A stretch of DNA of 21,721 nt, from NCBI GenBank assembly GCA_000004985.1, contig GG738954.1; one strand, given 5' to 3'. The translations under genes and the position numbers were made by a program. Under the pieces are notes generated by a model. The model ran no database searches and was not told the DNA's origin. It saw nothing but the letters and a program-made list of their open reading frames with translations. This DNA is from Naegleria gruberi (taxonomy: Eukaryota). Shown here one piece after another: positions 889 to 21,721 of this stretch. Numbering within the stretch: the stretch's first letter is position 1; the number at the start of each line of letters is the position of its first letter.

Positions 889-1263
889 TCATTTAATTTT
901 CGTTTCTTGATTTATTTCAAATTGAAGAAGTTCACCATGTTGAGGATATTTAGCAATCAATTCTTTCATAAATTTCTCATTAGAACGAACAATTCTTGGT
1001 GCATGTTTGATTGAGTGGATGTGGTAATGAACTGAGAGTGAAACTATTTCCAAATTAGAGGCAAGTTCGAGGTCGATGAGTTTAAGTGTTGTTTCGTGAT
1101 GTTTGAGAGCTTGTTTGATAATGTCCAAATCAGATTTTAGTAATTGTTTCGTCTGGGTTATTCGAAAGTCTTGTTCTTCTTCATCATGTGGATAGCATTC
1201 GAATAATTGACTCACCATTTGTGGATAGTATTGAATGTTTGCCAGTAGAGCAGATAATAACAA
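889..1263 (-). CDS. hypothetical protein (124-aa ORF). The first ATG is at 1216..1218, which would give a 110-aa product.
   Basis: A 375-nt open frame on the minus strand in AT-rich sequence is unlikely by chance; stop TGA (complement of 889..891). No recognisable motif. The upstream overlapping ORF 1184..1366 (-) and a GTGAGT at about 1208..1213 (minus strand) leave the true 5' structure uncertain. Further 5' exons may lie towards or inside the 1457..5267 gap. Confidence 0.35.
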   Translation of the reverse strand: MLLSALLANIQYYPQMVSQLFECYPHDEEEQDFRITQTKQLLKSDLDIIKQALKHHETTLKLIDLELASNLEIVSLSVHYHIHSIKHAPRIVRSNEKFMKELIAKYPQHGELLQFEINQETKIK

Positions 1264-1456
1264 TCTTTGCTGAAACTAGACGAAAGTTATCTTGCAATTC
1301 TCGGGAAGCAATGTTCCAATCCAAATAACAAACACATTCATGCATTTTCTTTTCAATTATTCTCAATAATATACTAGCTAATTAACTAATTTGTGGAAAA
1401 AATCTTTTGATATTTGCAAAGATTTTAACTTTCCAAATTGGACTAATTGTAATCTT

Positions 1457-4400: not shown

Positions 4401-5267
4401 NNNNNNNNNNNNNNNNNNNNNNNNNNNNNNNNNNNNNNNNNNNNNNNNNNNNNNNNNNNNNNNNNNNNNNNNNNNNNNNNNNNNNNNNNNNNNNNNNNNN
4501 NNNNNNNNNNNNNNNNNNNNNNNNNNNNNNNNNNNNNNNNNNNNNNNNNNNNNNNNNNNNNNNNNNNNNNNNNNNNNNNNNNNNNNNNNNNNNNNNNNNN
4601 NNNNNNNNNNNNNNNNNNNNNNNNNNNNNNNNNNNNNNNNNNNNNNNNNNNNNNNNNNNNNNNNNNNNNNNNNNNNNNNNNNNNNNNNNNNNNNNNNNNN
4701 NNNNNNNNNNNNNNNNNNNNNNNNNNNNNNNNNNNNNNNNNNNNNNNNNNNNNNNNNNNNNNNNNNNNNNNNNNNNNNNNNNNNNNNNNNNNNNNNNNNN
4801 NNNNNNNNNNNNNNNNNNNNNNNNNNNNNNNNNNNNNNNNNNNNNNNNNNNNNNNNNNNNNNNNNNNNNNNNNNNNNNNNNNNNNNNNNNNNNNNNNNNN
4901 NNNNNNNNNNNNNNNNNNNNNNNNNNNNNNNNNNNNNNNNNNNNNNNNNNNNNNNNNNNNNNNNNNNNNNNNNNNNNNNNNNNNNNNNNNNNNNNNNNNN
5001 NNNNNNNNNNNNNNNNNNNNNNNNNNNNNNNNNNNNNNNNNNNNNNNNNNNNNNNNNNNNNNNNNNNNNNNNNNNNNNNNNNNNNNNNNNNNNNNNNNNN
5101 NNNNNNNNNNNNNNNNNNNNNNNNNNNNNNNNNNNNNNNNNNNNNNNNNNNNNNNNNNNNNNNNNNNNNNNNNNNNNNNNNNNNNNNNNNNNNNNNNNNN
5201 NNNNNNNNNNNNNNNNNNNNNNNNNNNNNNNNNNNNNNNNNNNNNNNNNNNNNNNNNNNNNNNNNNN
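1457..5267. other. assembly gap (3811 N)
   Basis: Continuous run of n. All four ORFs in the track running through it (1378..5514 and 1382..5329 on the minus strand, 1391..5272 and 1407..6146 on the plus strand) are artefacts of translating N as X. Confidence 1.
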
Positions 5268-6146
5268 GTTGATTCACTCTCTGAGAATATTCCACAAATT
5301 GACTTGACCAACTTTTTAAATGAATACAAGAATGAGAAGGGAAGAGGTTTCGCCAGTAGAGGAAGAAGTTTAAAATCAATTTTGAGTGGAAATATTTCAG
5401 AAAAGGAATCTCAACGATTGGATAACTTGTTTGGTGTAGAGTATTTGGAGGATATTTATGATGAATTGAGAACTGGTGATGTCTTGTTGCATTCTGGAAA
5501 GGGAACTTTCTCAAAAGCTATTCAATTGGGATTTTCATCGACTTGGTCTCACTTGTCGATTATTATTAGAAATCCACCGAAAGAATTATTGGAATTGTAT
5601 AAGGTTCAAGTTGATGCTTCATCAAGATTTTCAACTGTTTTTGTTGCAGAATCTGAAACTGATACTGTGGACAATAAGGAAGGTGGTGGAATTCAATTAG
5701 TAGAATTGAGAAGGTGGTTTATGGATTATTTGGAAAGAGATCCAACTGATTTGTGTTGTTTGAGAAGATTGAACATTCCTTCAATGGATAATAGACCAAA
5801 GGATGAGAATATTGTGGATCAATTCCCAACACTTGTTGATTATTTGAAGATTTCCATTGATAAGAAATACGAAACTTCAAAATCTGAATTATTGAAATGT
5901 GTCATTAAGAGAAATACTCAATCCAATGATGCTAATGTATTCTGTTCTGAATTTGTGGCTGAATGCTATCTTAGAATGGGTTTATTGCCACAAAACACAA
6001 TTACCTGCAATTATGGACCTCGTGACTTTAGTCAGGAATCTAATTTGGTTAATACAGTTCTATTGAAAGGAGCCAACTTGACAAAAGAAAAGAGAATTCG
6101 AGTAAGAGAATGGGATGAAAAGAATGATTGGAATGTTCAACCATAA
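5268..6146 (+). CDS. 3' part of a gene (start codon is inside the gap) encoding a permuted papain-fold hydrolase domain of the YiiX/YaeF (C92) / NlpC-P60 superfamily type; putative cysteine amidase or peptidase.
   Basis: In-frame continuation of the real-sequence end of ORF 1407..6146, with no Met between the gap edge and the domain; stop TAA at 6144..6146. Motifs seen in the translation: GDVLLHSGKGTFSKAIQ...TWSHLSIIIRN (a His-containing strand) followed about 150 aa later by VFCSEFVAECYLRMGLLP (a nucleophile Cys in a C-S-E-[FL]-V context). The His-before-Cys order is characteristic of permuted NlpC/P60-like enzymes. Confidence 0.6.
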   Translation, partial: VDSLSENIPQIDLTNFLNEYKNEKGRGFASRGRSLKSILSGNISEKESQRLDNLFGVEYLEDIYDELRTGDVLLHSGKGTFSKAIQLGFSSTWSHLSIIIRNPPKELLELYKVQVDASSRFSTVFVAESETDTVDNKEGGGIQLVELRRWFMDYLERDPTDLCCLRRLNIPSMDNRPKDENIVDQFPTLVDYLKISIDKKYETSKSELLKCVIKRNTQSNDANVFCSEFVAECYLRMGLLPQNTITCNYGPRDFSQESNLVNTVLLKGANLTKEKRIRVREWDEKNDWNVQP

Positions 6147-6271: not shown

Positions 6272-7405
6272 CTAAAAATAATCATTTTGTTCTCTACTGT
6301 TTGAGTTAGAATCATCTTGTTCAAACAAAAAATCAAAGTCTGAATTAAGGGGAAAATTACCATTAGAACTTTCGTCTTGTTGATTGGGATCATATGCTAA
6401 TAGGTCAGTAATACATTCTTCGAACAATCTTTGAGGCGAAGAAATTAGATTTGGGAAGGAATTTGGACTTGGTGGTGCACTACTGGCAGCCATTTGAGAC
6501 ATGGCAGTTGGATACGTAGAATTCGGGATTCTTGGATCCATTAATGGGGTTGTTGGGATGAAATTTTGCATCACCGTATTGAAAGTTAGTGGTGTACTAG
6601 CAGATGGTGTCATTGGAACAAAGTTTTGCATTGGATTGACACTTGGTGGTGTAATAATATTAGGAACTAGTGGTGACAAAGAGTTTCCAGAAAGTGTTTG
6701 AGAATTATAAGATTGAATACTACCTGTATCATCACCAGAAGAGGAAGCTGCAACTACCTTCTTCTTTCTTGGTTTAGTCTTCTCACTGGTCTTTCTTTTA
6801 GTTCCAGATTTTGGCTCTTGATCTTCAATCATCGTTTCAGCAGAGGAACTAGAGGAAGCAGAAGCAGCAGCTCTCTTTCTAGGCTTTCTTTTCTTTCTGT
6901 TTGTTGTTACAGGTTCCAATCCACCATCAACATTAATTTCTTCTTCTTTTTCTTCTGACATTTCATCATCATCAGCAATCCATAGAGGTTCATCTTCACC
7001 ATTCAAATAGATGGCTTGAACCACTGATAAATTAGAATTATTCCTGACCACAGCCAGCCTTGTCTTCAACTTGATAACATGACCAAGGAGCACAATAATA
7101 ATATCACCCACTGCCTTTGTTGGGCACTTAACTTGACAAGCACCAAGTATCTTGGAAATTGTCATTTCAGCACGCATCTTGTTATCGCTAAAGTTGTTCT
7201 TCATCATGTACCAGCCTGATCTGTTTTGCAATGCATCAACCACAACCACTCTGATCTTGATGCCATCGAACAATTCCAATGAAACATGGGCCAATCCCTT
7301 CTTTCTAATAACAATTTTAAAAACAGGACGATGGGTAATTGGATCGTAAATAGTTTGTTCAAAGATTGGTTTATCAACGTTATTGACGTTATTGTTCTTG
7401 GTCAT
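6272..7405 (-). CDS. hypothetical nuclear protein, likely a transcription regulator: about 150-aa N-terminal globular domain of unrecognised family, an acidic stretch, two basic NLS-like clusters, an S/T/P-rich region with internal repeats, and an acidic/hydrophobic C-terminal tail.
   Basis: Intronless 377-aa ORF with ATG (complement of 7403..7405) and TAG stop (complement of 6272..6274). Features in the translation: basic clusters RKKRKPRKR and KRKTSEKTKPRKKK; a Ser run (AAASASSSSSA); a repeated motif MQNFVPMTPSASTP / MQNFIPTTPLMDP; and a C-terminal DFDFLFEQDD activation-domain-like tail. The plus-strand ORFs 6501..6701, 6698..6958 and 7152..7349 are antisense to this gene and are rejected. 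Confidence 0.7.
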   Translation of the reverse strand: MTKNNNVNNVDKPIFEQTIYDPITHRPVFKIVIRKKGLAHVSLELFDGIKIRVVVVDALQNRSGWYMMKNNFSDNKMRAEMTISKILGACQVKCPTKAVGDIIIVLLGHVIKLKTRLAVVRNNSNLSVVQAIYLNGEDEPLWIADDDEMSEEKEEEINVDGGLEPVTTNRKKRKPRKRAAASASSSSSAETMIEDQEPKSGTKRKTSEKTKPRKKKVVAASSSGDDTGSIQSYNSQTLSGNSLSPLVPNIITPPSVNPMQNFVPMTPSASTPLTFNTVMQNFIPTTPLMDPRIPNSTYPTAMSQMAASSAPPSPNSFPNLISSPQRLFEECITDLLAYDPNQQDESSNGNFPLNSDFDFLFEQDDSNSNSREQNDYF

Positions 7406-7676
7406 CGCGAGAGGGTTAAGAGGGTTTGATATTTGAAACTCTGATTAATTAAAATGATTTTTTTTTTGTTTTTAAAATATCAAATATTTCCGCGGTTTTA
7501 AGCTACAAAGTCAATCATGTTCCCCATTGGTTGAAAATGCACGTTTACAAAATCAAATTACTGGTGTTGATATTCATTCAATGAAAATCCACCCATGCAC
7601 AAAAGGTTGTCAATGACTTGAATTTACTTTACAATAAAAAGTCTTGTTCGGAACTGGAACAAGTAATACGCGCGTA

Positions 7677-10405
7677 NNNNNNNNNNNNNNNNNNNNNNNN
7701 NNNNNNNNNNNNNNNNNNNNNNNNNNNNNNNNNNNNNNNNNNNNNNNNNNNNNNNNNNNNNNNNNNNNNNNNNNNNNNNNNNNNNNNNNNNNNNNNNNNN
7801 NNNNNNNNNNNNNNNNNNNNNNNNNNNNNNNNNNNNNNNNNNNNNNNNNNNNNNNNNNNNNNNNNNNNNNNNNNNNNNNNNNNNNNNNNNNNNNNNNNNN
7901 NNNNNNNNNNNNNNNNNNNNNNNNNNNNNNNNNNNNNNNNNNNNNNNNNNNNNNNNNNNNNNNNNNNNNNNNNNNNNNNNNNNNNNNNNNNNNNNNNNNN
8001 NNNNNNNNNNNNNNNNNNNNNNNNNNNNNNNNNNNNNNNNNNNNNNNNNNNNNNNNNNNNNNNNNNNNNNNNNNNNNNNNNNNNNNNNNNNNNNNNNNNN
8101 NNNNNNNNNNNNNNNNNNNNNNNNNNNNNNNNNNNNNNNNNNNNNNNNNNNNNNNNNNNNNNNNNNNNNNNNNNNNNNNNNNNNNNNNNNNNNNNNNNNN
8201 NNNNNNNNNNNNNNNNNNNNNNNNNNNNNNNNNNNNNNNNNNNNNNNNNNNNNNNNNNNNNNNNNNNNNNNNNNNNNNNNNNNNNNNNNNNNNNNNNNNN
8301 NNNNNNNNNNNNNNNNNNNNNNNNNNNNNNNNNNNNNNNNNNNNNNNNNNNNNNNNNNNNNNNNNNNNNNNNNNNNNNNNNNNNNNNNNNNNNNNNNNNN
8401 NNNNNNNNNNNNNNNNNNNNNNNNNNNNNNNNNNNNNNNNNNNNNNNNNNNNNNNNNNNNNNNNNNNNNNNNNNNNNNNNNNNNNNNNNNNNNNNNNNNN
8501 NNNNNNNNNNNNNNNNNNNNNNNNNNNNNNNNNNNNNNNNNNNNNNNNNNNNNNNNNNNNNNNNNNNNNNNNNNNNNNNNNNNNNNNNNNNNNNNNNNNN
8601 NNNNNNNNNNNNNNNNNNNNNNNNNNNNNNNNNNNNNNNNNNNNNNNNNNNNNNNNNNNNNNNNNNNNNNNNNNNNNNNNNNNNNNNNNNNNNNNNNNNN
8701 NNNNNNNNNNNNNNNNNNNNNNNNNNNNNNNNNNNNNNNNNNNNNNNNNNNNNNNNNNNNNNNNNNNNNNNNNNNNNNNNNNNNNNNNNNNNNNNNNNNN
8801 NNNNNNNNNNNNNNNNNNNNNNNNNNNNNNNNNNNNNNNNNNNNNNNNNNNNNNNNNNNNNNNNNNNNNNNNNNNNNNNNNNNNNNNNNNNNNNNNNNNN
8901 NNNNNNNNNNNNNNNNNNNNNNNNNNNNNNNNNNNNNNNNNNNNNNNNNNNNNNNNNNNNNNNNNNNNNNNNNNNNNNNNNNNNNNNNNNNNNNNNNNNN
9001 NNNNNNNNNNNNNNNNNNNNNNNNNNNNNNNNNNNNNNNNNNNNNNNNNNNNNNNNNNNNNNNNNNNNNNNNNNNNNNNNNNNNNNNNNNNNNNNNNNNN
9101 NNNNNNNNNNNNNNNNNNNNNNNNNNNNNNNNNNNNNNNNNNNNNNNNNNNNNNNNNNNNNNNNNNNNNNNNNNNNNNNNNNNNNNNNNNNNNNNNNNNN
9201 NNNNNNNNNNNNNNNNNNNNNNNNNNNNNNNNNNNNNNNNNNNNNNNNNNNNNNNNNNNNNNNNNNNNNNNNNNNNNNNNNNNNNNNNNNNNNNNNNNNN
9301 NNNNNNNNNNNNNNNNNNNNNNNNNNNNNNNNNNNNNNNNNNNNNNNNNNNNNNNNNNNNNNNNNNNNNNNNNNNNNNNNNNNNNNNNNNNNNNNNNNNN
9401 NNNNNNNNNNNNNNNNNNNNNNNNNNNNNNNNNNNNNNNNNNNNNNNNNNNNNNNNNNNNNNNNNNNNNNNNNNNNNNNNNNNNNNNNNNNNNNNNNNNN
9501 NNNNNNNNNNNNNNNNNNNNNNNNNNNNNNNNNNNNNNNNNNNNNNNNNNNNNNNNNNNNNNNNNNNNNNNNNNNNNNNNNNNNNNNNNNNNNNNNNNNN
9601 NNNNNNNNNNNNNNNNNNNNNNNNNNNNNNNNNNNNNNNNNNNNNNNNNNNNNNNNNNNNNNNNNNNNNNNNNNNNNNNNNNNNNNNNNNNNNNNNNNNN
9701 NNNNNNNNNNNNNNNNNNNNNNNNNNNNNNNNNNNNNNNNNNNNNNNNNNNNNNNNNNNNNNNNNNNNNNNNNNNNNNNNNNNNNNNNNNNNNNNNNNNN
9801 NNNNNNNNNNNNNNNNNNNNNNNNNNNNNNNNNNNNNNNNNNNNNNNNNNNNNNNNNNNNNNNNNNNNNNNNNNNNNNNNNNNNNNNNNNNNNNNNNNNN
9901 NNNNNNNNNNNNNNNNNNNNNNNNNNNNNNNNNNNNNNNNNNNNNNNNNNNNNNNNNNNNNNNNNNNNNNNNNNNNNNNNNNNNNNNNNNNNNNNNNNNN
10001 NNNNNNNNNNNNNNNNNNNNNNNNNNNNNNNNNNNNNNNNNNNNNNNNNNNNNNNNNNNNNNNNNNNNNNNNNNNNNNNNNNNNNNNNNNNNNNNNNNNN
10101 NNNNNNNNNNNNNNNNNNNNNNNNNNNNNNNNNNNNNNNNNNNNNNNNNNNNNNNNNNNNNNNNNNNNNNNNNNNNNNNNNNNNNNNNNNNNNNNNNNNN
10201 NNNNNNNNNNNNNNNNNNNNNNNNNNNNNNNNNNNNNNNNNNNNNNNNNNNNNNNNNNNNNNNNNNNNNNNNNNNNNNNNNNNNNNNNNNNNNNNNNNNN
10301 NNNNNNNNNNNNNNNNNNNNNNNNNNNNNNNNNNNNNNNNNNNNNNNNNNNNNNNNNNNNNNNNNNNNNNNNNNNNNNNNNNNNNNNNNNNNNNNNNNNN
10401 NNNNN
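7677..10405. other. assembly gap (2729 N)
   Basis: Continuous run of n. All three minus-strand gap ORFs are artefacts. Of the two plus-strand gap ORFs, only the real-sequence tail of 7644..10478 (10406 onward) is retained; 7618..10413 is an artefact. Confidence 1.
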
Positions 10406-11331: not shown

Positions 11332-14300
11332 ATGGAATCAACATTAGGCAGAAGATCATCTATTTCCACCTCTTCATCAGATGGTGGTTCTTCAATAACT
11401 TCTGCCTCTTTTGCCAGCTCCTTATTCAAAACCTTTAATGAATATCTATCAATGATGTATTTATGTAGCAAGATGAGGATGAACACCCTCACAAGGTTTA
11501 GCAACAGTAAAGGCAGCTATGTAGAAGGTTTGCCTGTAACAGTCCCTTGGAAGATACGACTGGCTAGATTGGCTATATCGTTATGGTTTTTATACATGTT
11601 GTGGATTGGAATTTGGTTACCTGCATTGACTTCTCATCAGGAGTATTCTAGTATACTTTCATCTAATAGTACCATAAATAATGAATATAATACTTCACCG
11701 TTTGGATTTGAAGGAGGATGGGTATTTAGAGTATTGAACTATCCACTCACTTTATCAACAGATGCCATTCCTTATGAGGGAATAATTGCACTTTCTGTCA
11801 TATTTACATTGATTTCATTGGTGAATATTATCTTGATGATTATTGGAATGAAGAAGAGATGTGAAGGAATTTACAAAATATTTGACAAGGTTGGGATGTA
11901 TTGTTCATTAGTAGTATCGTTTATTGGACCAGTTGCCTTATTTATTATGAGCAGTTTTGTTGATTGTAATCCAAATATTCAAATCAATGTCGAAGATCAG
12001 ACAGCAAGTGTTTCTGGATTGTCAAGATTTCCATCAGTTCAATGTTATTCTAAAACAAATACTATTTTAATTGTCATGAGTTTGATTGGAATGATGATTA
12101 CATTTGTGAGTTGGAGTTTCTCTGTGTTTTTATTGCCAATCAATACACCCAATGTTGGAATTCCTTTTGTGACGAAGGATAACTTTATATTGGCACCAAC
12201 TATTTGCACGATAGGATTCGAATTGTTAATCATATTCTTGATTCCACCGAATTACATGATGGGGAGAGCGATAGTTCATCTCATTTTGAGCATTTATCAA
12301 CATTCCACTCATCATTTACAGTTTACCATTTTATCATCGAATGATGAATTCACTCTATTTTGGAGTTGTTTGTGCAAGATTTGGAGTTAGTATTGGATTT
12401 TTGATTAGTTCATTGGTCAATTTAAATCTTTTGAGTGATTTGGGACTTGGAATGATGGGATTGAGTATTGGATTGGGAATTCTATTTTTCATTCTTGCTT
12501 TTACTGCTTTGGAAATTTACACAAGGTTGTGCTGCAGGCGAATTAGAAACATCTTTTCAAGAAAGATATCAGAATCCACAATCACTAACAGCAAGCAAGA
12601 CATCAACCTTTACTCAATAGTAGAAAAGGAAGCTCTTTCAATCTTTACTCTTTGTGAGCATGTTTCATCCAGAAGTTTGACTCTATTCTTGCAATCTACT
12701 GTTTGCCTAAAAGAACAAAACGGGTATAAGGAGGATGATGAATATATAGCACTGGACGATAAGTTGTTGGCAATATCCTTTGTCAAGTCTATTTCGCAAC
12801 AAAAATCTTTCGTCAATGCAGACATGTTGATAATTTCCGGAATGCTTATTAACTTTAATAGCAAAGAGGACAACAAGTATCAATTCGCCAGTTATCTTCT
12901 AGCAAAAGCATACAAACGAACCTCCAACACTATCAAGAAGTTAATCGTTTTAGAAAAACAAAAAGAAATTGAGATTGATTTGAATGAAGTGACCAAAACA
13001 AATATTGAAGTCAGAAATGCAATCACAGAGGTGGCTAAAAAGTTGGAAGAATTACGTATTGTTCATAGATCATTCTGGAAGGAAATGCTTAATGAAATGC
13101 CAAACGAAACCAAACTTTTACAAATTAATAGTAAGGCAACCGTATTATCCAAATTTTGTGAAAAATCCTTTTCCAACTTGATGAAGTCTCATAATCATGA
13201 CAAGACAGTAATCAGATTCTATGCAAAATATGTGGAGGAATTCAAGTTTGATAAGGAATTGTCGAATTCATTGTTTGAAGAAGCTAACCAGTTGGAAGAC
13301 GAAGAATCCAGATCAAGAAAGTATTCAATAATGAAATTACAACCAAATGAAACAAAGAAATTCAAAAATAAGGTAGCTCCATCATCTCCAAATTTAATGG
13401 ATGATATGAGTGTTACTGGAAGAGAAACCATGTTCGATTCTATGGGATCGCTCAGCATGAAAAAATTCTCTAATCAGCCAACTAACAATCCATTAAATGA
13501 GACAGATTTTGAAGGAGTAGAAAATGAAGGTATTGACAAGAAGGAATCATTTTTCAGAGCTGCCATCAATACTCCATTTCAATCAAAGTTGAAAATATCC
13601 ATCTTCCTTGGCCTTTCAGTGCTATTACATATTTGTATGATTGCAATATTTGTGCTAAGTATGGTATTTAGTGAAAAAGTTGTTTCTACTCCTCTTGTAT
13701 TGCAGAGTTGCATTACAGGCTCAACACCTGGCGCCTTGTTGAGATTTACGAGAATGAATCAAATTTTGACTGAGGTTTACGCAAATGAAGGACAACCTTG
13801 GTTACAGAACTCTACCAGGTATTACGAAATTAATAACTTTTTGAAAAATTACAAGAATAGATATTTGGAGCATAAGGGGTATTTGGAAACATTAATTTCC
13901 AATTCACAATCAGGAAAGTTTACAAGTAACATGTATACTGACTTTACAGAGAGAGCAAGTCCAATTTTAATTCCAATTTCAACAACAGACCCTAAATCTA
14001 TTGAATTTGTAAATACCTTCTCAAAGAATGTTTCAATGAGTGAAGTTTCTCAAGAATTCTTGCATCATGTTGAACAATTTTTGAACTTTGGAGAAAAGCA
14101 ATACAATGAAACAACAAAAAGTTACAGTTTCATGTATGTCTACTTGAATAGAAGATATTTAGCCGATAATTATCTCCAATTCTGTAGATCATTCCAGGAG
14201 AGCGAAAGAGCTAGTACTTTTGAACTGAATATCATACTCTCGAGCTATATTTTTGCTTCTTCTTCCGTAATGACGATGATTTACGTTATTTTCATTTTGA

Positions 14301-14887
14301 TTTCAAGGAGTGAGATGACTTGGTTCAGTAAGATCACATCTCTTTACAAGAAAATTCCAAAAGATTTTGTTGGAATAATTTATCACAAATTGGAAGAAAA
14401 GACAAAAGATGATGCCAAACATTTGAAGAAAAATCCTCTCTTGCAACCAAAAAATTTTACTTTAATACTGGCTATTTTGATAGTTGTAATATTCATGTTG
14501 TCTTCTGGTTTGATTTATTATGAAATTTCAATGAATATTTCAACTGCATCATCTGCCATTTACAATGTTGATTTGATGAGCGTCTTTTTGAGAACAGTTC
14601 ATAGAGTTACTATTAGATTAAATGAATTCTTCATTTATCTTACCCTGCCTTCTGGAAAATTCATTAACAGTCCATATTTAGTTTCGAATAATTCACAATT
14701 GCAAACAATGAAAACAGAAATCAGACAATTCATTGATTTGACTGCAACCATTTATGATCAGGTTATTTATGGCCAAGATGGAGTTACTTCTTCTCTTGTT
14801 GGGCAATATTCTGAAATTGACAAGATGATAACAGGTCAGTCCACATGCAGCAATTCCACAATTGATTACGAAATTAGCAATAATGGA
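11332..14887 (+). pseudogene. copy 1 of the giant membrane-sensor adenylyl-cyclase paralog family (8-TM N-terminal block, coiled coil, TM-bracketed loops). A +1 frameshift (extra g at about 12294) splits the reading frame: 11332..12390 in frame 1, then 12341..14887 in frame 2. The 3' end (PAS and cyclase) is missing at the 14888..15050 gap. Either a pseudogene or a sequencing error.
   Basis: The ATG at 11332 sits in an aaaag-aATGGA context like the copy-3 start. The N-terminal TM block from 11693 onward is about 93-95% identical at nucleotide level to copy 3 (20137 onward). At 12281..12300, copy 1 reads catctcattttgaGcatttatc where copy 3 reads catctcattttgacatttatc; one extra base shifts the frame and gives a stop at 12388..12390. 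The downstream frame (12341..14887) is collinear with copy 2 (15058..17589). The frame-1 ORF extension back to 11194 is not conserved in copy 3 and is taken to be 5' UTR. Confidence 0.6.
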
Positions 14888-15050
14888 NNNNNNNNNNNNN
14901 NNNNNNNNNNNNNNNNNNNNNNNNNNNNNNNNNNNNNNNNNNNNNNNNNNNNNNNNNNNNNNNNNNNNNNNNNNNNNNNNNNNNNNNNNNNNNNNNNNNN
15001 NNNNNNNNNNNNNNNNNNNNNNNNNNNNNNNNNNNNNNNNNNNNNNNNNN
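14888..15050. other. assembly gap (163 N) joining non-collinear parts of two paralogs
   Basis: Upstream of the gap, copy 1 ends at the position equivalent to copy 2 nt 17589 (the ...IDYEISNNG loop). Downstream, sequence resumes at the position equivalent to copy 1 nt 12338 / copy 3 nt 20778 (the ...YHRMMNSLYF junction). About 1.6 kb of copy 1 (its 3' part) plus an intergenic region plus about 1.1 kb of copy 2 (its 5' part) are unaccounted for. Confidence 1.
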
Positions 15051-18000
15051 TCATCGAATGATGAATTCACTCTATTTTGGAATTGTTTGTGCAAGATTTG
15101 GAGTGAGTATTGGATTTTTGATTAGCTCATTAGTCAATTTAAATCTTTTGAGTGATTTGGGTCTTGGAATGATGGGATTGAGTATTGGATTGGGAATTCT
15201 ATTTTTCATTCTTGCTTTTACTGCTTTGGAAATTTACACACTCGTAGTTTGCAGACAAATAAGAAATATTTTCAAAACCAAGATTAGTGCCTGTGAAATA
15301 AATGAGAGCAGAGCAGATTTATCACTTTACAACATTATTGAAAGAGAGGCAGTTTCCATTTTCATTGTTTGTGAACAATTATCTCTAAGACACTTGATGT
15401 TGTTTTTACAATTTTCAATTGGGCAAAATGTGAAACATCACTCCCCCGATCATTACGGTGTGACTATTGTCAGTGATCCATTAATGGCTATTGCTTTTGT
15501 GAAATCCATTTCTCAGCAGAAATCCTTCCTTAATACTGAAATGTTGCTCATTTCAAGTGTTTTGGTCAATTACATTTGGCAAGATGATCACAGATCTCAA
15601 TTTGCAAATTATCTACTGGCAAAGGCTCTTAAACATTGTCATCAAACGTTAAAGAGAGTTCTTATCACTGAAAAACAAAAAGAAATTGAAATTACACTTA
15701 ACGAGCTAACCAAGACAAATATGGAAGTAAGAAACACAATTACAGAATTAGAAATTACCCTTGCTGAGCTTCGAATTGTTCATAAATCATTCTGGAAGGA
15801 AATGTTGAACGATATTCCAAACGAAACCAAACTTTCACAAATTAATAGCAGAGCTTCTGTCCTAACACTATTCTGTGACCAGAATTTCCTCAATCTTACC
15901 AAAGCTCACAGTCATGATAAGACAGTGATTCGTTTTTATGCATCCTACCTTGAGGAATTCAAATTCGATAAGGAACTATCTACTTCATTGTTTGAAGAAG
16001 CTGCTGCAATGGAAGAAGAAGAATCGAGATCAAAGAATGTCAATCATCACAATCCACAATCATATTACGAAGCAAAGAAATTCAAGAATAAGATTGTGCC
16101 CTCATCCAATGTGGAAATGTCCACCAATAATGAAGATATTAGTACTGAAAGAGATGAAAGTGGTTCAGCCCTAAATGGAAAAAGTCAATTCAATGGGAAT
16201 GAGATGGATTTCGAAGGTGTCGAAAATCAAGGAATTGACAAGAAGGAAACCTTCTTCAGAACTGCCATCAATGCTCCATTCCAATCCAAACTGAGAATCT
16301 CGATCTTTCTATTCTTGTCAGTTTTGATGCATGTCTTGTTAATTGTCATTTTCATTCTGAGTATTGTTTATAATGAGAGAGTTGTTTCTACTCCTCTTGT
16401 ATTGCAGAGTTGCATTCCTGGTTCAACACCTGGTGCATTACTAAGAGTTGCAAGAATGAATCAAATTTTGACTGAGGTTTACGCAAATGAAGGACAATCA
16501 TGGTTAAAGAACTCGAGTAGAATGTATGAATTGAATTATTTCACATCAACCTTCAGAAATCGATATTTGGAGCATAAGGGGTATTTGGAAACATTAATTT
16601 CCAATTCACAATCAGGTAAATTTACAAGTAACATGTATAATGACTTTACAGAGAGAGCAAGTCCAATTTTAATTCCAATTTCAACAACAGATCCTAAATC
16701 GATTGAATTTGTAAACACCTTCTCAAAGAATGTTTCAATGAGTGAAGTTTCTCAAGAATTCTTGCATCATGTTGAGCAATTTTTGAACTTTGGAGAAAAG
16801 CAATACAATGAAACAACAAAGAGTTACAGTTTCATGTACATTTATTTAAATAGAAGATATTTAGCCGATAATTATCTCCAATTCTGCAAGTCATTCCAGG
16901 AAAGCGAAAGAGCCAACACTCACCAGTTGAATATTATTTTACTGGCCTATATTTTCACATCCTCCTCAGTAATGACGATGATTTACGTTATTTTCATTTT
17001 GATTTCAAGGAGTGAGATGACATGGTTCAGTAAGATCACATCTCTTTACAAGAAAATTCCAAAAGATTTTGTTGGAATAATTTATCACAAATTAGAAGAA
17101 AAGACAAAAGATGATGCCAAGCACTTGAAGAAAAATCCTCTCTTGCAACCAAAGGCCTTTTCTCTGATATTGGCACTTCTAATTGTGACAGTTTTCATGT
17201 TGTCTTCTGGTTTGATTTATTATGAAATTTCAATGAATATTTCAACTGCTTCATCTGCCATTTACAATGTTGATTTGCTGAGTGTATTTTTGAGAACAGT
17301 TCATAGAGTTACCATTAGACTGAATGAATTGTTTATTTACTTGTCATTGCCATCTGGAAAATTCATTAACAGTCCATATTTAGTTTCGAATAATTCACAA
17401 TTGCAAACAATGAAAACAGAAATCAGACAATTCATTGATTTGACAGCAACCATTTATGATCAGGTTATTTATGGACAAGATGGAATAACAACACCACTCG
17501 TTGGAAAATACTCCAAATTAGATAAGATTATTACTGGTCTATCGACTTGCACCAATTCCTCAATTGACTATAATTGGAAATCTAATGGAAACAAAATTAT
17601 TGGACAAAGTAATGAATTGTTAAAAGATTGTTATGGTCTTCAAAAGTACATGTCTACATTCACAATTCTTGCAGGACAAGTGAGTGAAAAGTTCTTCAAT
17701 CCTTCCTATGCTTCGACACAATCTGAAGAAGCATTCGCAGAATTGTTAACATTATTTAATATGTGTGATATGGTTTATGACAAGTTTAGAGATTTTCTCA
17801 CAACATTGGTCAGTTTGACATCTGTTCCTTCCATTACAATTTCAATTGTCTTGATTTTCGGTATAACTTCAATGCTCATATTACAATATATGATTTTCAT
17901 CAGTTTCCAAACCTATGATCACGAAATAACCAATATGAAAGCATTCTTGAATTATCTGTCCACAGAATTCATAGAATCAAATGATGGACTCAAGAGTTTT

Positions 18001-19206
18001 GCCTTGTACAACTCTATTGGAACGAACTATTTGACTGGACGAAAGCTAAAACAATCCTCAGCTACAGATCAAGATTCTTTGAAGAAATTAATGAGTTCAA
18101 TGGTAGATGGTGCACTATTAGCAAACGAAAGTGGAGATATCATTCTTTTCAACGGACCAGCTCAGAACATGTTCGGAAAGTCAATTTCTGATGTTCTGGG
18201 AACAAACTTTATGCATTTATTTGATGAGCACTCTGGTGAAAAGTTGTCCAACATTTTGAAAACAATCAAGAGTGAAATTGATGAAAATGTCAAACATGGA
18301 GATGTTATTGAATTGGAATGTGTTAGAAAGAATTCCACAAAGTTTCCAGCCATGGTTACTATCTTTGTTTCGAGAATTTCTGGCAGCTCTTACAAGGGAA
18401 AGAGTAACTCAATGGTTGTTTCATGCTTTATGAGAGATATCACTCCAGAGAAGAAGCAAAATTCACTTCTAGCAGAGGAGAAGAAAAATTCAGAAAATTT
18501 ATTGAGAAACATCTTGCCAGATGCTGTTGCAAGCAAGTTGAAATCAGGTGAGACATTTATTGCTGAGAGATTTAGTGATATTACTTGTTTCTTTAGTGAT
18601 ATGGTTGGTTTTACGAAAATGTCAAGTGGAATGAATCCAAGTGAATTGGTTTTGATGTTGTCATCAATTGTGAATGGATTTGATGATTTGACAGATGTTT
18701 ATTCATTGGAAAAGATCAAGACAATTGGTGATGCTTATTTTTGTGTTGGAGGTTTACATAATAATCCACAATCTGATCATCCTGAAAGAACATTGAGATT
18801 TGCAATTGATACATTTCAAGTGATTAGAAATTATAATATTGAACATCCTCAAAATCAATTGAATATTCGAGTTGGAATCAATACAGGATCAGTTGTTGCT
18901 GGTGTAATTGGAAAGAAGAAGTTTGCCTATGATTTATGGGGTGATACCATCAATACTGCTTCTCGAATGGAATCAACTTCAATGGCAGGAAGAATTCAAA
19001 TTTCCAGATCAACCTATCAGAGAGTCTATGATATTGGATTTGAATTTGAACAGAGAAGTGTTGAAGTGAAAGGAAAAGGTGTTTGTGAAACCTATTTATT
19101 GAAGGATAAACATCATGCAACGTCAATAATTCCAGTAACAGAATCACAAATTCTCAAGAAGGAACAAAGCAACGAAGAAAAATTAAGCGAACAATTAGAT
19201 CAATAA
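15051..19206 (+). CDS. copy 2: membrane-sensor adenylyl cyclase, 5'-truncated by the gap (open frame from 15052; first in-frame ATG at 15058; 1382 codons to TAA at 19204..19206). Order of parts: TM pair, coiled coil, TM, about 180-aa loop, TM, TM, about 190-aa loop, TM, PAS, class III cyclase domain.
   Basis: A single uninterrupted 4.1-kb ORF. Hydrophobic helices at about 15058..15250, 16290..16380, 16925..17010, 17160..17230 and 17800..17900. Heptad-rich segment EKQKEIEITLNELTKTNMEVRNTITELEITLAELRIVHKSF at about 15660..15790. C-terminal cyclase motifs: FFSDMVGFT (metal-binding Asp), KIKTIGDAYFCVGGL (second metal Asp plus specificity Lys), YDLWGDTINTASRMEST (specificity Asp, and the Asn/Arg transition-state pair). 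Confidence 0.85.
18080..18440 (+). other. PAS sensor domain within copy 2
   Basis: LKKLMSSMVDGALLANESGDIILFNGPAQNMFGKSISDVLGTNFMHLFDE...GDVIELECVRKNSTKFPAMVTIFVSR. The PAS-like core pattern is hydrophobic - N - x - A - x - x - hydrophobic - hydrophobic - G, followed by a beta-rich segment, placed between the last TM helix and the cyclase domain. Confidence 0.55.
18550..19100 (+). other. class III nucleotidyl cyclase catalytic domain (CYC/CHD), with residues predicting adenylyl cyclase specificity and homodimeric function
   Basis: Both metal-binding Asp residues are present (FSDMVGF and IGDAY). The base-specifying pair is Lys (KIKTIGD) and Asp (YDLWG), not the Glu/Cys pair of guanylyl cyclases. 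The Asn (TINTA) and Arg (SRME) transition-state residues are also present. Having every catalytic residue in one domain is typical of cyclases that act as homodimers. Confidence 0.9.
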
Positions 19207-19703: not shown

Positions 19704-21721
19704 ATGGAGCCATCATCGATAGGGGGAGGATCATCAGTTTCAGGCTCCACACAAACATCCAATGCCTCTTCAAGTTCCTTGTCTGGAAACATCTTTAGAA
19801 CAGTTAATGAATTTCTCACAAATTTGTACATGTCGGGAAAGTTGAGAATGAATGGTTTAACGAGACAATATACATCAATGAATAGCAGTTTGTTAGGTGC
19901 TGGTGTTTCTAGTGCTGGATTTTATGAGAGCTTTAATAGGAAACCTTCGTGGAATGTAAGGTTGTGCAGAGGTTTACTGTTTGTCTGGTTTTTGTATATC
20001 ATGTGGATTGGAGTGTGGTTACCTGGATTAACTTCTCATCAGGATTATTCACAAATATATTCTTCATCATCTTCTGTTTCATCATCAAGCAATTCAGGAA
20101 ATCAAACGAGTAGTATAGTAAATAATGAATTTAACACTTCACCGTTTGGATTTGAAGGAGGATGGGTATTTAGAGTATTGAATTATCCACTCACTTTATC
20201 AACAGATGCCATTCCTTATGAGGGAATAATTGCCTTGTCTGTCCTATTTACATTGATTTCATTGGTGAATATTATCTTGATGATTATTGGAATGAAGAAG
20301 AGATATGGAAATGTTTACAAATTCTTGGATAAAGTGGCGATGTGTTGGGGAATGATTGTATTATTCAGTGGACCAGTTGCCTTGTTTATTATGAGCAGTT
20401 TTATTGATTGTAATCCAAATATTAGGATTGAAATTGAGAATCAGACAGCAAGTGTTTCTGGATTGTCAAGATTTCCAACAGTTCAGTGCTATTCAGCTGA
20501 TAATATAGTATTACTAGTTCTGAGTTTGATTGGAATGATGATTACATTTGTGAGTTGGGGTTTCTCTGTGTTTTTATTGCCAATCAATACACCCAATGTT
20601 GGAATTCCTTTTGTGACGAAGGATAACTTTATATTGGCACCAACCATTTGCACGATAGGATTGGAATTGTTAATCATGTTCTTGATTCCACCGAATTTCA
20701 TGATGGGGAGAGCGATTGTTCATCTCATTTTGACATTTATCAACATTCCACTCATCATTTACAGTTTACCATTTTATCATCGAATGATGAATTCACTCTA
20801 TTTTGGAATTGTTTGTGCAAGATTTGGAGTGAGTATTGGAGTATTGATTAGCTCATTGGTCAATTTAAATCTGTTGAGTGATTTGGGACTTGGAATGATG
20901 GGATTGAGTATTGGATTGGGAATTCTATTTTTCATTCTTGCTTTTACTGCTTTGGAGATTTACACGCTCGTTGTTTGCAGACAAATAAGAAATATTTTCA
21001 AAACCAAGATTAGTGCCTGTGAAATAACTGAGAGCAGAGCAGATTTATCCCTGTACAACATTATTGAAAGAGAGGCAGTTTCCATTTTCATTGTTTGTGA
21101 ACAATTATCTCTGAGACACTTGATGTTGTTTTTACAATTTTCAATTGGGAAAAATGTGAAACATCACTCCCCCGATCATTACGGTGTGACTATTGTCAGT
21201 GATCCATTGATGGCTATTGCTTTTGTGAAATCCATTTCTCAGCAGAAATCCTTCCTTAATACTGAAATGTTGCTCATTTCAAGTGTTTTGGTCAACTACA
21301 TTTGGCAAGATGATCACAGATCTCAATTTGCAAATTATCTACTAGCAAAGGCTCTTAAACATTGTCATCAAACTTTAAAGAGAGTTCTTATCACTGAAAA
21401 ACAAAAAGAAATTGAAATTACACTCAACGAGCTAACCAAGACAAATATGGAAGTAAGAAACACAATTACAGAATTAGAAATAACCCTTGCTGAGCTTCGA
21501 ATTGTTCATAAATCATTCTGGAAGGAAATGTTGAACGATATTCCAAACGAAACCAAACTTTCACAAATTAATAGCAGAGCTTCTGTCCTAACACTATTCT
21601 GTGACCAGAATTTCCTCAATCTTACCAAAGCTCACAGTCACGATAAGACAGTGATACGTTTTTATGCGTCCTACCTTGAGGAATTCAAATTCGATAAGGA
21701 ACTATCTACTTCATTGTTTGA
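19704..21721 (+). CDS. copy 3: membrane-sensor adenylyl cyclase paralog, 5' complete (ATG 19704..19706), open to the window end (3' partial). N-terminal Ser-rich segment, then the 8-TM block, then the start of the coiled-coil region.
   Basis: Translated codon by codon from 19704 to 21721 in frame (positions divisible by 3) with no stop. It is missing from the supplied ORF track, apparently because that track requires a terminal stop. About 97-98% nucleotide identity to copy 2 over 20785..21721 versus 15058..15994 (about 22 mismatches in about 940 nt). N-terminal TM block 93-95% identical to copy 1. ORF 20648..20851 (+) and ORF 20489..20701 (-) are off-frame or antisense and are rejected. Confidence 0.8.
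   Translation, partial: MEPSSIGGGSSVSGSTQTSNASSSSLSGNIFRTVNEFLTNLYMSGKLRMNGLTRQYTSMNSSLLGAGVSSAGFYESFNRKPSWNVRLCRGLLFVWFLYIMWIGVWLPGLTSHQDYSQIYSSSSSVSSSSNSGNQTSSIVNNEFNTSPFGFEGGWVFRVLNYPLTLSTDAIPYEGIIALSVLFTLISLVNIILMIIGMKKRYGNVYKFLDKVAMCWGMIVLFSGPVALFIMSSFIDCNPNIRIEIENQTASVSGLSRFPTVQCYSADNIVLLVLSLIGMMITFVSWGFSVFLLPINTPNVGIPFVTKDNFILAPTICTIGLELLIMFLIPPNFMMGRAIVHLILTFINIPLIIYSLPFYHRMMNSLYFGIVCARFGVSIGVLISSLVNLNLLSDLGLGMMGLSIGLGILFFILAFTALEIYTLVVCRQIRNIFKTKISACEITESRADLSLYNIIEREAVSIFIVCEQLSLRHLMLFLQFSIGKNVKHHSPDHYGVTIVSDPLMAIAFVKSISQQKSFLNTEMLLISSVLVNYIWQDDHRSQFANYLLAKALKHCHQTLKRVLITEKQKEIEITLNELTKTNMEVRNTITELEITLAELRIVHKSFWKEMLNDIPNETKLSQINSRASVLTLFCDQNFLNLTKAHSHDKTVIRFYASYLEEFKFDKELSTSLF

What the first reader, a model, noticed from the sequence alone, without database searches (positions are those of the whole stretch)
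18550..19100. Catalytic-domain residues predict a homodimeric adenylyl, not guanylyl, cyclase
The single catalytic domain has both metal-binding Asp residues (FSDMVGF, IGDAY), the adenine-specifying Lys (KIKTIGD) and Asp (YDLWGD), and the Asn/Arg transition-state pair (TINTASRME). In mammalian membrane adenylyl cyclases these residues are split between two domains. Having all of them in one chain implies a head-to-tail homodimer with two active sites, as in bacterial and protist class III enzymes. The PAS domain and coiled coil immediately upstream could couple the sensor to dimer geometry.
Basis: established knowledge. Interest (0 to 1): 0.5.

Follow-up and report, generated by a model that had tools for sequence, protein, structure and literature searches.

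The report
Naegleria PAS-linked class III adenylyl cyclase
The region encodes a standard, complete class III cyclase catalytic domain at the end of a large Naegleria membrane protein; its residues predict an ATP-using enzyme that works as a symmetric dimer, which is the expected, ordinary case for single-domain cyclases.

Summary
Nt 18562-19104 (+) encode a Pfam PF00211 cyclase domain (E 7e-57). It forms the C-terminus of a 1382-codon ORF (15058-19206) whose 5' end is lost in a scaffold gap.

- Metal Asp: D1181 and D1225.
- Adenine-specifying pair: K1221 and D1292. Guanylyl cyclases have Glu and Cys there.
- Transition-state pair: N1299 and R1303.
- Also R1271 and K1338.

All untruncated sequences among the 123 closest database relatives carry the same eight residues. 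An AlphaFold model (pLDDT 92.7) shows a PAS domain, a 24-residue helix, a short "handle" helix and then the cyclase fold. Its best structural match is the homodimeric mycobacterial Cya cytosolic domain (TM 0.90-0.92).

The protein is from Naegleria gruberi. Its catalytic domain is 100% identical to that of a deposited "predicted protein". It belongs to a heterolobosean-only family of polytopic-membrane/PAS/cyclase proteins with an invariant 39-residue PAS-to-cyclase linker. The window holds three tandem paralogues.

It remains untested biochemically. This is an ordinary new member of a well-known kind, so interest is low.

The parts
15051..19206 (+). Gene copy B. It is the 3' 4.1 kb of a roughly 1740-codon gene for a polytopic membrane / PAS / cyclase protein. 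The listed ORF starts at 15058, but that ATG is internal; the true 5' end (about 335-358 codons) is lost in the N gap 14888-15050.
   Evidence: ORF. (the contig restarts at 15051 with ..HRMMNS). (P0001, N. gruberi predicted protein of 1740 aa, aligns at 98% identity from its aa 335).
15724..16029 (+). TPR_TmcB repeat region (aa 223-324) within the membrane module.
   Evidence: PF25474, E 2.9e-13.
18082..18444 (+). PAS domain (aa 1009-1129). Its ligand is unknown. It has no LOV cysteine and no aligned FixL proximal His.
   Evidence: PAS_9 E 9e-15; PAS E 1.4e-7. (modelled PAS fold, pLDDT mostly above 90). (only marginal FixL/EcDOS similarity).
18445..18561 (+). 39-residue linker, equivalent to a helical domain / cyclase transducer element. 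It comprises a helix at aa 1129-1152, the LP kink (P1154) and a handle helix at aa 1155-1162 (LLRNILPDAVASKLK at nt 18499-18543).
   Evidence: helices at model residues 130-153 and 156-163. (aligns to the helical region of AC9 C2 and of mycobacterial Cya). (linker length is 39 aa in 33 of 35 family members). (90% identical to N. lovaniensis).
18562..19104 (+). Class III (subclass IIIa-like) cyclase homology domain, aa 1169-1349.
   Evidence: PF00211 E 6.9e-57. (AC9, AC8, AC5, Cya, GC-A). (Foldseek: 5o5k/5o5l TM 0.90-0.92, rmsd 1.7-1.8).
18598..18600 (+). D1181, first metal-binding Asp (FSDMVGF).
   Evidence: same column as AC5-C1 D396 and Rv1625c D256. D in 117/117 untruncated relatives.
18718..18720 (+). 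K1221, adenine-specifying Lys (KTIGD).
   Evidence: same column as AC2-C2 K938 and Rv1625c K296, where GCs have Glu. K in 124/124.
18730..18732 (+). D1225, second metal-binding Asp (IGDAY).
   Evidence: same column as C1 D440 and Rv1625c D300. D in 124/124.
18868..18870 (+). R1271, conserved phosphate-contacting Arg of the RVGI strand.
   Evidence: same column as the Arg of MRVGIH in AC5-C1 (position D396+88, i.e. R484). R in 123/123.
18931..18933 (+). D1292, adenine-specifying Asp (YDLWG).
   Evidence: same column as C2 D1018 and Rv1625c D365, where GCs have Cys. D in 120/120.
18952..18966 (+). N1299 (18952-18954) and R1303 (18964-18966), the transition-state-stabilising pair (TINTASRME).
   Evidence: same columns as C2 N1025/R1029 and Rv1625c N372/R376. 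N in 120/120 and R in 120/120.
19069..19071 (+). K1338 of VKGKG, the triphosphate-contacting Lys.
   Evidence: same column as C2 K1065 (K938+127). K in 119/119.

Best explanation
Nt 18562-19104 encode the C-terminal catalytic domain of a Naegleria gruberi receptor-type class III (IIIa-like) adenylyl cyclase.

One chain carries the complete catalytic set: two metal Asp, the Lys/Asp adenine-recognition pair, the Asn/Arg transition-state pair and two phosphate-binding basic residues. In class III enzymes the active site forms at the interface of two catalytic domains. One domain supplies the metal Asp residues. The other supplies the Lys, Asp, Asn and Arg. Two copies of this chain arranged head to tail would therefore form two equivalent ATP sites, making cAMP and pyrophosphate.

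The PAS domain is joined to the cyclase by a linker of fixed length (39 residues: a long helix, a Leu-Pro kink and a short handle helix). In related enzymes this element pairs in the dimer and sets the relative orientation of the two catalytic domains. A PAS or membrane-module signal would therefore be transmitted as a change in dimer geometry.

Shown here: domain identity, residue equivalence, fold, linker conservation, and family and taxon.

Inferred: catalytic activity, ATP preference, self-pairing and the direction of regulation.
For: - Pfam PF00211 E 6.9e-57, and PAS_9 E 9e-15.
- The best sequence matches among solved structures are AC9, AC8 and AC5, then mycobacterial Cya/Rv1625c at 168 bits over the single domain, then GC-A. 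The class IIIb structures I recognise in the list by entry code from memory score far lower.
- The alignment to PDB-verified references puts all eight catalytic residues in the canonical columns. GCs have Glu, Cys and Arg where this protein has Lys, Asp and Ala.
- All 124 aligned sequences, where not truncated, carry D-K-D-R-D-N-R-K.
- The AF2 model has pLDDT 92.7 and a PAS - helix - handle helix - cyclase layout.
- The top Foldseek hits are the dimeric Cya cytosolic domain 5o5k/5o5l (TM 0.90-0.92, rmsd 1.7-1.8 A). sGC chains align over about 390 columns.
- The catalytic domain is 81% and the linker 90% identical to the N. lovaniensis orthologue, against 33-48% for the rest of the protein. This indicates purifying selection on the output module.
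- The linker is 39 aa in 33 of 35 family members.
- Literature: Lys/Asp specify ATP and Glu/Cys specify GTP (PMC7384201). Single-domain class III ACs need homodimerisation, and the Rv1625c D300A and R376A mutants complement each other (PMC4821796). The helical domain brings the catalytic domains into an active dimer (PMC5699072).
Against: - There is no biochemical, expression or oligomer data.
- Only a monomer could be modelled.
- The gene sits in a tandem array of close paralogues (74-84% identical), so mixed dimers are possible.
- Its 5' end is missing from this assembly, and the neighbouring copy A has a frameshift. Integrity of the full gene at this locus is therefore not shown here.
- The linker helix has few hydrophobic a/d positions, so a stable coiled coil is not evident from sequence alone.
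Confidence: 0.85

Rival explanations
1. The enzyme works mainly as a heterodimer with a paralogue. Naegleria has 80 or more cyclases, and three near-identical copies lie in tandem here. Self-pairing would then be only one of several combinations.
For: - Tandem copies A, B and C share the same architecture.
- Naegleria encodes at least 81 cyclases (PMC9928731).
- Some family members have degenerate catalytic sets (P0181 DKEK.., P0166 ..DIKK, P0146 DT-) that could act only as partners in asymmetric dimers.
Against: This chain lacks nothing, so it does not need a partner. 21 of the 36 cyclase-bearing family members carry the complete catalytic set, and most of the others are truncated entries rather than substituted ones. 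There is no evidence of co-expression.
Confidence: 0.15
2. It is a guanylyl or dual-specificity cyclase despite the Lys/Asp pair.
For: GC-A scores almost as high as mycobacterial Cya by sequence and by fold. Specificity in class III enzymes is partly set during catalysis and not only by the two residues (PMC7384201).
Against: All three positions that separate GCs from ACs are of AC type: Lys rather than Glu, Asp rather than Cys, and no Arg two residues before. Engineered Glu->Lys / Cys->Asp changes convert GCs into ACs (PMC7384201, citing Scheib 2018).
Confidence: 0.04
3. The copy in this window is a non-functional duplicate or an assembly artefact, such as an alternative haplotype or a collapsed repeat, and not an expressed enzyme.
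For: - The scaffold is full of N gaps, and the gene is cut by one.
- Adjacent copy A carries a 1-nt frameshift and is a mosaic: 98% identical to P0001 at its N-terminus and 74% in its body.
- The C-terminal tail differs from P0001, at 33% identity.
Against: The reading frame is uninterrupted for 1382 codons. The catalytic domain is 100% identical in protein sequence to P0001 and 81% identical to the N. lovaniensis orthologue. No catalytic residue is lost.
Confidence: 0.08

Closest known systems
Mycobacterial Cya / Rv1625c (class IIIa homodimeric membrane adenylyl cyclase; PDB 5o5k, 5o5l, 4p2m, 7yzk)
   Same: It has a single catalytic domain per chain, with all six canonical residues in the same columns (D256/K296/D300/D365/N372/R376). 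The catalytic domain is preceded by a helical domain with the LLxNxLPxxxAxxLK motif. It gives the best structural match (TM 0.90-0.92) and 37-40% identity.
   Different: Cya has a 6-TM anchor joined directly to the helical domain and has no PAS domain. The Naegleria protein has a much larger membrane module of about 1300 aa with many hydrophobic segments and TmcB-type TPR repeats. A PAS domain sits between that module and the helix.
Mammalian membrane adenylyl cyclases AC1-9 (C1/C2 pseudo-heterodimer; PDB 1azs, 1cjk, 6r3q, 8sl3)
   Same: They share the fold and chemistry. They give the highest whole-protein sequence scores, because both C1 (106 bits) and C2 (120 bits) match. The adenine-recognition pair is Lys/Asp.
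   Different: In the mammalian enzymes the catalytic set is split. C1 has the two Asp and lacks the Lys/Asp/Asn/Arg set. C2 has Lys/Asp/Asn/Arg and lacks the metal Asp residues (FASIPDF, IGSTY). That gives one active site plus a forskolin site. Here both sets are in one domain, which predicts two active sites.
Soluble guanylyl cyclase (H-NOX - PAS - coiled coil - cyclase) and receptor GC-A
   Same: sGC has the same PAS - helical linker - cyclase order, and sGC chains align to the model over about 390 columns. The catalytic domain is 43-44% identical to that of GC-A.
   Different: The GCs have Glu, Cys and Arg at the purine-recognition positions where this protein has Lys, Asp and Ala. sGC is an obligate alpha/beta heterodimer with one active site. 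It has an H-NOX domain and no membrane module.
Sensor-coupled homodimeric cyclases with a fixed helical coupler (rhodopsin-GC RhGC, bPAC/OaPAC, phytochrome-cyclase fusions)
   Same: A sensor domain signals through a helix and a cyclase transducer element to a symmetric cyclase dimer (PMC7384201, PMC5995499). RhGC catalytic domains match at TM 0.86-0.91.
   Different: The sensors differ (rhodopsin, BLUF, phytochrome). The PAS domain here has no recognisable chromophore-binding signature.

Membership tests
Class III nucleotidyl cyclase (Pfam PF00211, cyclase homology domain) | Significant full-length match to the family profile | tested here: met
   E 6.9e-57, 192 bits against a cut-off of 21.9, covering profile positions 3-182 of 183.
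Class III nucleotidyl cyclase (Pfam PF00211, cyclase homology domain) | Beta-alpha-beta-beta-alpha-beta cyclase fold | tested here: met
   AF2 pLDDT 92.7; Foldseek TM 0.84-0.92 and rmsd 1.7-3.0 A to solved AC and GC catalytic domains.
Catalytically competent class III cyclase | Two metal-binding Asp, plus the Asn and Arg transition-state residues | tested here: met
   D1181, D1225, N1299 and R1303 are in the canonical columns. R1271 and K1338 are also in their canonical columns.
Catalytically competent class III cyclase | Measured cyclase activity | not testable with these tools
   This needs an enzyme assay on recombinant protein.
Adenylyl (not guanylyl) cyclase | Lys and Asp (or Thr) at the two purine-recognition positions; GCs have Glu and Cys/Ser | tested here: met
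   K1221 and D1292 align with AC2-C2 K938/D1018 and Rv1625c K296/D365. GC-A, sGC alpha1 and sGC beta1 show E and C in those columns. The rule is as stated in PMC7384201.
Adenylyl (not guanylyl) cyclase | ATP preferred over GTP in turnover | not testable with these tools
   This needs an ATP versus GTP assay.
Homodimeric (single-domain) class III cyclase | One cyclase domain per chain that carries both the metal-binding set and the substrate/transition-state set | tested here: met
   One search shows a single PF00211 stretch. One search shows both sets present, unlike mammalian C1 or C2 taken alone.
Homodimeric (single-domain) class III cyclase | Head-to-tail dimer observed, with inter-subunit active sites | not testable with these tools
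   Only a monomer model could be built. Testing needs SEC-MALS or AUC, mutant complementation, or a multimer prediction.
Subclass IIIa (Linder & Schultz; mammalian tmACs, GCs, Rv1625c) | Closest similarity to IIIa references, and Asp (not Thr/Ser as in IIIb) at the second purine position | tested here: met
   the IIIa structures score 84-229 bits. The hits I take to be IIIb (CyaB 3r5g, CyaC 1wc0 and the PACs; subclass assigned from memory) score 26-55 bits. No entry that I recall as IIIc or IIId (Rv1264, Rv1900c, trypanosomal) is among the 54 hits. D1292 is Asp.
Cyclases with a helical domain / cyclase transducer element | Helix plus short handle helix directly N-terminal to the catalytic domain, with conserved length | tested here: met
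   (helices at aa 1129-1152 and 1155-1162). (this stretch aligns to the AC9-C2 and Cya helical regions). (39 aa in 33 of 35 family members).
LOV or haem-PAS sensor | Flavin-adduct Cys (GxNCRFLQ), or the FixL-type proximal His | tested here: not met
   The sequence reads TNFMHLFDE at the LOV motif position (LOV motif recalled from memory). In the marginal FixL alignment (E 0.023) the proximal His column, as I recall its position, is Leu.

The most novel reading that the evidence does not exclude
The roughly 1300-residue polytopic membrane module is found only in Heterolobosea. It has about 108 cluster representatives among 1.84 billion, and it contains TmcB-type TPR repeats. It may be a genuine ligand- or stimulus-sensing receptor that controls cAMP synthesis through the PAS domain and the fixed 39-residue coupler. 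That would make this family a lineage-specific class of receptor adenylyl cyclases with an unknown input, expanded by tandem duplication.
Probability: 0.3. Interest if true: 0.45.

Novelty: new member of a known kind. Interest (0 to 1): 0.15.

Why it matters
The direct significance is small. The result assigns a likely substrate (ATP) and quaternary logic (a symmetric dimer with two sites) to one of the many unannotated "predicted protein" cyclases of Naegleria gruberi.

It also defines clean construct boundaries for anyone who wants to test it: PAS at 18082-18444, linker at 18445-18561 and cyclase at 18562-19104.

The wider family may be a tractable system for asking what membrane anchors of adenylyl cyclases sense. 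That family combines a heterolobosean-only membrane module, a PAS domain, an invariant 39-aa linker and the cyclase. The catalytic-domain finding itself is the textbook case.

Tried and rejected
No chain with the Rv1264 entry codes as I recall them appeared among the 54 PDB sequence hits at E<=0.001. I used the class IIIa homodimer Rv1625c/Cya instead.
- **Retinal GC.** To my knowledge there is no solved structure of its catalytic domain. I used GC-A and sGC alpha1/beta1 as the GC references.
- **Locus of P0001.** An exact look-up (look-up of encoding contigs) found nothing on record. The relation of this window to the reference assembly stays unresolved: it could be an allele, a different strain or a paralogue.
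- **Literature on TmcB.** The search for 'TmcB' or 'tiny macrocysts' returned nothing relevant.
- **Naegleria genome paper.** It is not held in the library. The cyclase counts come from PMC9928731.
- **Pfam scan of the whole membrane-module family.** The scan exceeded the size limit. I replaced it with HMMs built from my own alignment.
- **LOV photoreceptor or haem-PAS reading of the PAS domain.** Considered and rejected for lack of the signature residues.
- **Prokaryotic reading of the window.** Rejected. The best hits are Naegleria, the GC content is 33%, and the architecture is eukaryotic.

Full report
**Where the finding sits**

The window has 33% G+C and contains three runs of N: 1457-5267, 7677-10405 and 14888-15050. 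The finding lies at the 3' end of a 1382-codon ORF on the + strand, 15058..19206.

Pfam finds three features in the ORF:
- TmcB-type TPR repeats at aa 223-324 (E 2.9e-13).
- A PAS domain at aa 1017-1129 (PAS_9, E 9e-15).
- One adenylate/guanylate cyclase catalytic domain at aa 1169-1349 (PF00211, E 6.9e-57, profile positions 3-182 of 183).

**The motifs**

All quoted motifs are present:
- FSDMVGF at 18592-18612.
- KIKTIGDAY at 18712-18738.
- YDLWGD at 18928-18945.
- TINTASRME at 18946-18972.
- VKGKG, with KGKG at 19069-19080.

**Organism and gene**

The best database match is a Naegleria gruberi "predicted protein" of 1740 aa (P0001), at 98% identity over 99% of the ORF. Next come orthologues in N. 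lovaniensis (44%) and Willaertia magna (32%) with the same Pfam architecture.

The contig after the gap restarts at 15051 with ..HRMMNS, which is aa ~335 of P0001. The ATG at 15058 is therefore internal. About 335-358 N-terminal codons, which are hydrophobic and multi-pass in P0001, are lost in the assembly gap.

The window holds three tandem paralogues:
- Copy A, 11332-14887, which runs into the gap.
- Copy B, which is this gene.
- Copy C, from 19785 to the end of the window.

**Testing the residue assignments**

I recalled catalytic-domain sequences of six reference proteins and verified each against the PDB sequence file. The few wrong residues were corrected from the printed alignments. 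The references were:
- GC-A (9bcv).
- sGC beta1 and alpha1 (6jt0).
- Rv1625c-type Cya (4p2m).
- AC5 C1 (8sl3/1azs_A).
- AC2 C2 (1azs_B).

In the MAFFT alignment, the spacing of the reference residues reproduced the published numbering. For IIC2, K938 to D1018, N1025, R1029 and K1065 gave +80, +87, +91 and +127. For C1, D396 to D440 gave +44. For Rv1625c the series was 256/296/300/365/372/376. The columns are therefore the right ones.

| Residue here | Role | AC5 C1 | AC2 C2 | Rv1625c | GCs |
|---|---|---|---|---|---|
| D1181 | metal Asp | D396 | - | D256 | - |
| D1225 | metal Asp | D440 | - | D300 | - |
| K1221 | purine recognition | - | K938 | K296 | Glu |
| D1292 | purine recognition | - | D1018 | D365 | Cys |
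| N1299 | transition state | - | N1025 | N372 | - |
| R1303 | transition state | - | R1029 | R376 | - |
| R1271 | phosphate contact | Arg of MRVGIH | - | - | - |
| K1338 | triphosphate contact | - | K1065 | - | - |

"GCs" means GC-A, sGC alpha1 and sGC beta1, which all show Glu and Cys in those two columns.

The GC-typical Arg two residues before the Cys (MPRYCLFG) is Ala here (KFAYDLWG). HMMER's own alignment to AC9 C1 and C2 gives the same equivalences.

Mammalian C1 lacks the Lys/Asp/Asn/Arg set. C2 lacks the metal Asp residues (FASIPDF, IGSTY). This chain has both sets.

**Relatives**

A search with the PAS-to-cyclase segment gave thousands of hits. The 120 best, plus P0001-3 and the query, were aligned. 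Every sequence not truncated at the relevant position has D-K-D-R-D-N-R-K.

After the heterolobosean paralogues, the closest catalytic domains are cyanobacterial and Leptospira cyclases at 50-56% identity. That is higher than the metazoan ACs and GCs at 29-44%.

Among solved structures the ranking is AC9/AC8/AC5, then Cya/Rv1625c, then GC-A. The structures I recognise as class IIIb (subclass from memory) are far behind. No entry I recall as IIIc or IIId appears in the list. This places the domain in or next to subclass IIIa.

**Structure**

An AlphaFold2 model of aa 1000-1360, built with the 124-sequence alignment, has mean pLDDT 92.7. It shows, in order:
- A PAS fold.
- A helix at ORF aa 1129-1152.
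- The Leu-Pro kink.
- A short helix at aa 1155-1162.
- The cyclase fold.

[quoted passage not shown] GC-A, Rv1625c, RhGC, AC9 and AC5/AC2 follow. sGC chains align over about 390 columns, that is, including their PAS and helical parts.

The 5o5k paper shows that this helical domain brings two catalytic domains into the active dimer (PMC5699072).

**Conservation pattern**

Identity to the N. lovaniensis orthologue varies sharply by region:

| Region | Identity to N. lovaniensis |
|---|---|
| Cyclase domain | 81% |
| Linker | 90% |
| PAS domain | 48% |
| Membrane module | 33-35% |

The output module is thus under the strongest constraint.

The membrane module (aa 1-999) has only 108 relatives at E<=1e-3 among 1.84 billion cluster representatives. 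Of ten looked up, nine carry names, and all nine are from Naegleria, Willaertia or Acrasis. Thirty-five of the relatives carry PAS plus cyclase, and the PAS-to-cyclase linker is 39 residues in 33 of those 35. An invariant linker length is what a rigid helical coupler requires.

**Mechanism**

This part is inference from established knowledge. Class III active sites lie at the interface of two catalytic domains. Single-domain enzymes must homodimerise, and they form two sites. In Rv1625c the D300A and R376A mutants, each inactive alone, complement each other (PMC4821796). Lys/Asp read adenine, and Glu/Cys read guanine (PMC7384201).

The protein is therefore most likely an adenylyl cyclase acting as a head-to-tail dimer with two ATP sites. 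Its activity would be set by the PAS domain and membrane module through the helical linker.

The following are not shown: activity, substrate ratio, oligomeric state, the PAS ligand, and expression. The PAS domain has no LOV Cys and no aligned FixL His, and its similarity to haem-PAS domains is only marginal.

**Rivals**

- Mixed dimers with paralogues are possible. Three tandem copies lie here, Naegleria has at least 81 cyclases (PMC9928731), and a few family members have degenerate catalytic sets.
- GTP or dual specificity is unlikely, because all three discriminating positions are of AC type.
- A dead duplicate or assembly artefact is unlikely for this copy. The frame is intact for 1382 codons and the catalytic domain is 100% identical to P0001. 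However, copy A has a 1-nt frameshift, and the locus is gapped.

**Verdict**

This is the ordinary, expected configuration for a single-domain class III cyclase, in a lineage already known for a very large cyclase repertoire. The exact catalytic domain is already deposited, though unnamed. It is a new member of a known kind, and interest is low.

Noticed in passing
window 11332-14887, 15051-19206, 19785-21719 (+): Three tandem paralogues of the same membrane/PAS/cyclase gene. Copy A runs into the N gap 14888-15050, copy B loses its 5' end in the same gap, and copy C runs off the window. Copies A and C are 74-84% identical to P0001 where they align.
   Followed up: partly
window ~12291-12293 (+): Copy A has a single extra base (TTGAGCATTT against TTGA-CATTT in copy C). 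This shifts the frame between its N-terminal 320 codons and the rest, so it is either a pseudogene or a sequencing error.
   Followed up: partly
window 11332-12291 versus 12290-14887: Copy A is a mosaic. Its first 320 codons are 98% identical to P0001, but the following 870 are only 74% identical. This suggests gene conversion between tandem copies or a chimeric contig.
   Followed up: no
window 15058-18054 (aa 1-999 of the ORF): The membrane module with TmcB-type TPR repeats has only 108 relatives among 1.84 billion cluster representatives. Of ten looked up, the nine that carry names are all heterolobosean (Naegleria, Willaertia, Acrasis). Nearly all long members end in PAS + cyclase.
   Followed up: partly
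window 18445-18561: The PAS-to-cyclase linker is exactly 39 residues in 33 of 35 family members. It is also 39 residues in 20 of the 28 sequences with both domains among the closest relatives, a set that includes the heterolobosean paralogues and unnamed metagenome proteins.
   Followed up: yes
window 18562-19104: Outside Heterolobosea, the catalytic domain is closest to cyanobacterial and Leptospira cyclases (50-56% identity). It is less similar to metazoan ACs and GCs (29-44%). This hints at a bacterial-type origin for this cyclase lineage.
   Followed up: no
window 19105-19206: The C-terminal tail after the cyclase domain is only 33% identical to P0001, although the domain itself is 100% identical. 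The window is therefore not the same allele or locus as the deposited model.
   Followed up: no
P0181, P0166, P0146 (family members, not in the window): A few family members have substituted catalytic residues (DKEK....DIKK, DT-). They are candidates for inactive or asymmetric-partner cyclases.
   Followed up: no
window 5268-6143 (+), 892-1275 (-), 6275-7444 (-): Other coding fragments in the window: a Peptidase_C92-like (permuted papain-like amidase) fragment abutting an N gap, a DUF4116-containing ORF, and a low-complexity Ser/Lys/acidic-rich ORF with no family above threshold.
   Followed up: partly
P0019 (295 aa, on a 1323-bp contig): A partial N. gruberi PAS-cyclase protein is 83% identical to this segment and sits on a tiny contig. 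It could be the missing 3' end of copy A or C that fell into a gap.
   Followed up: no
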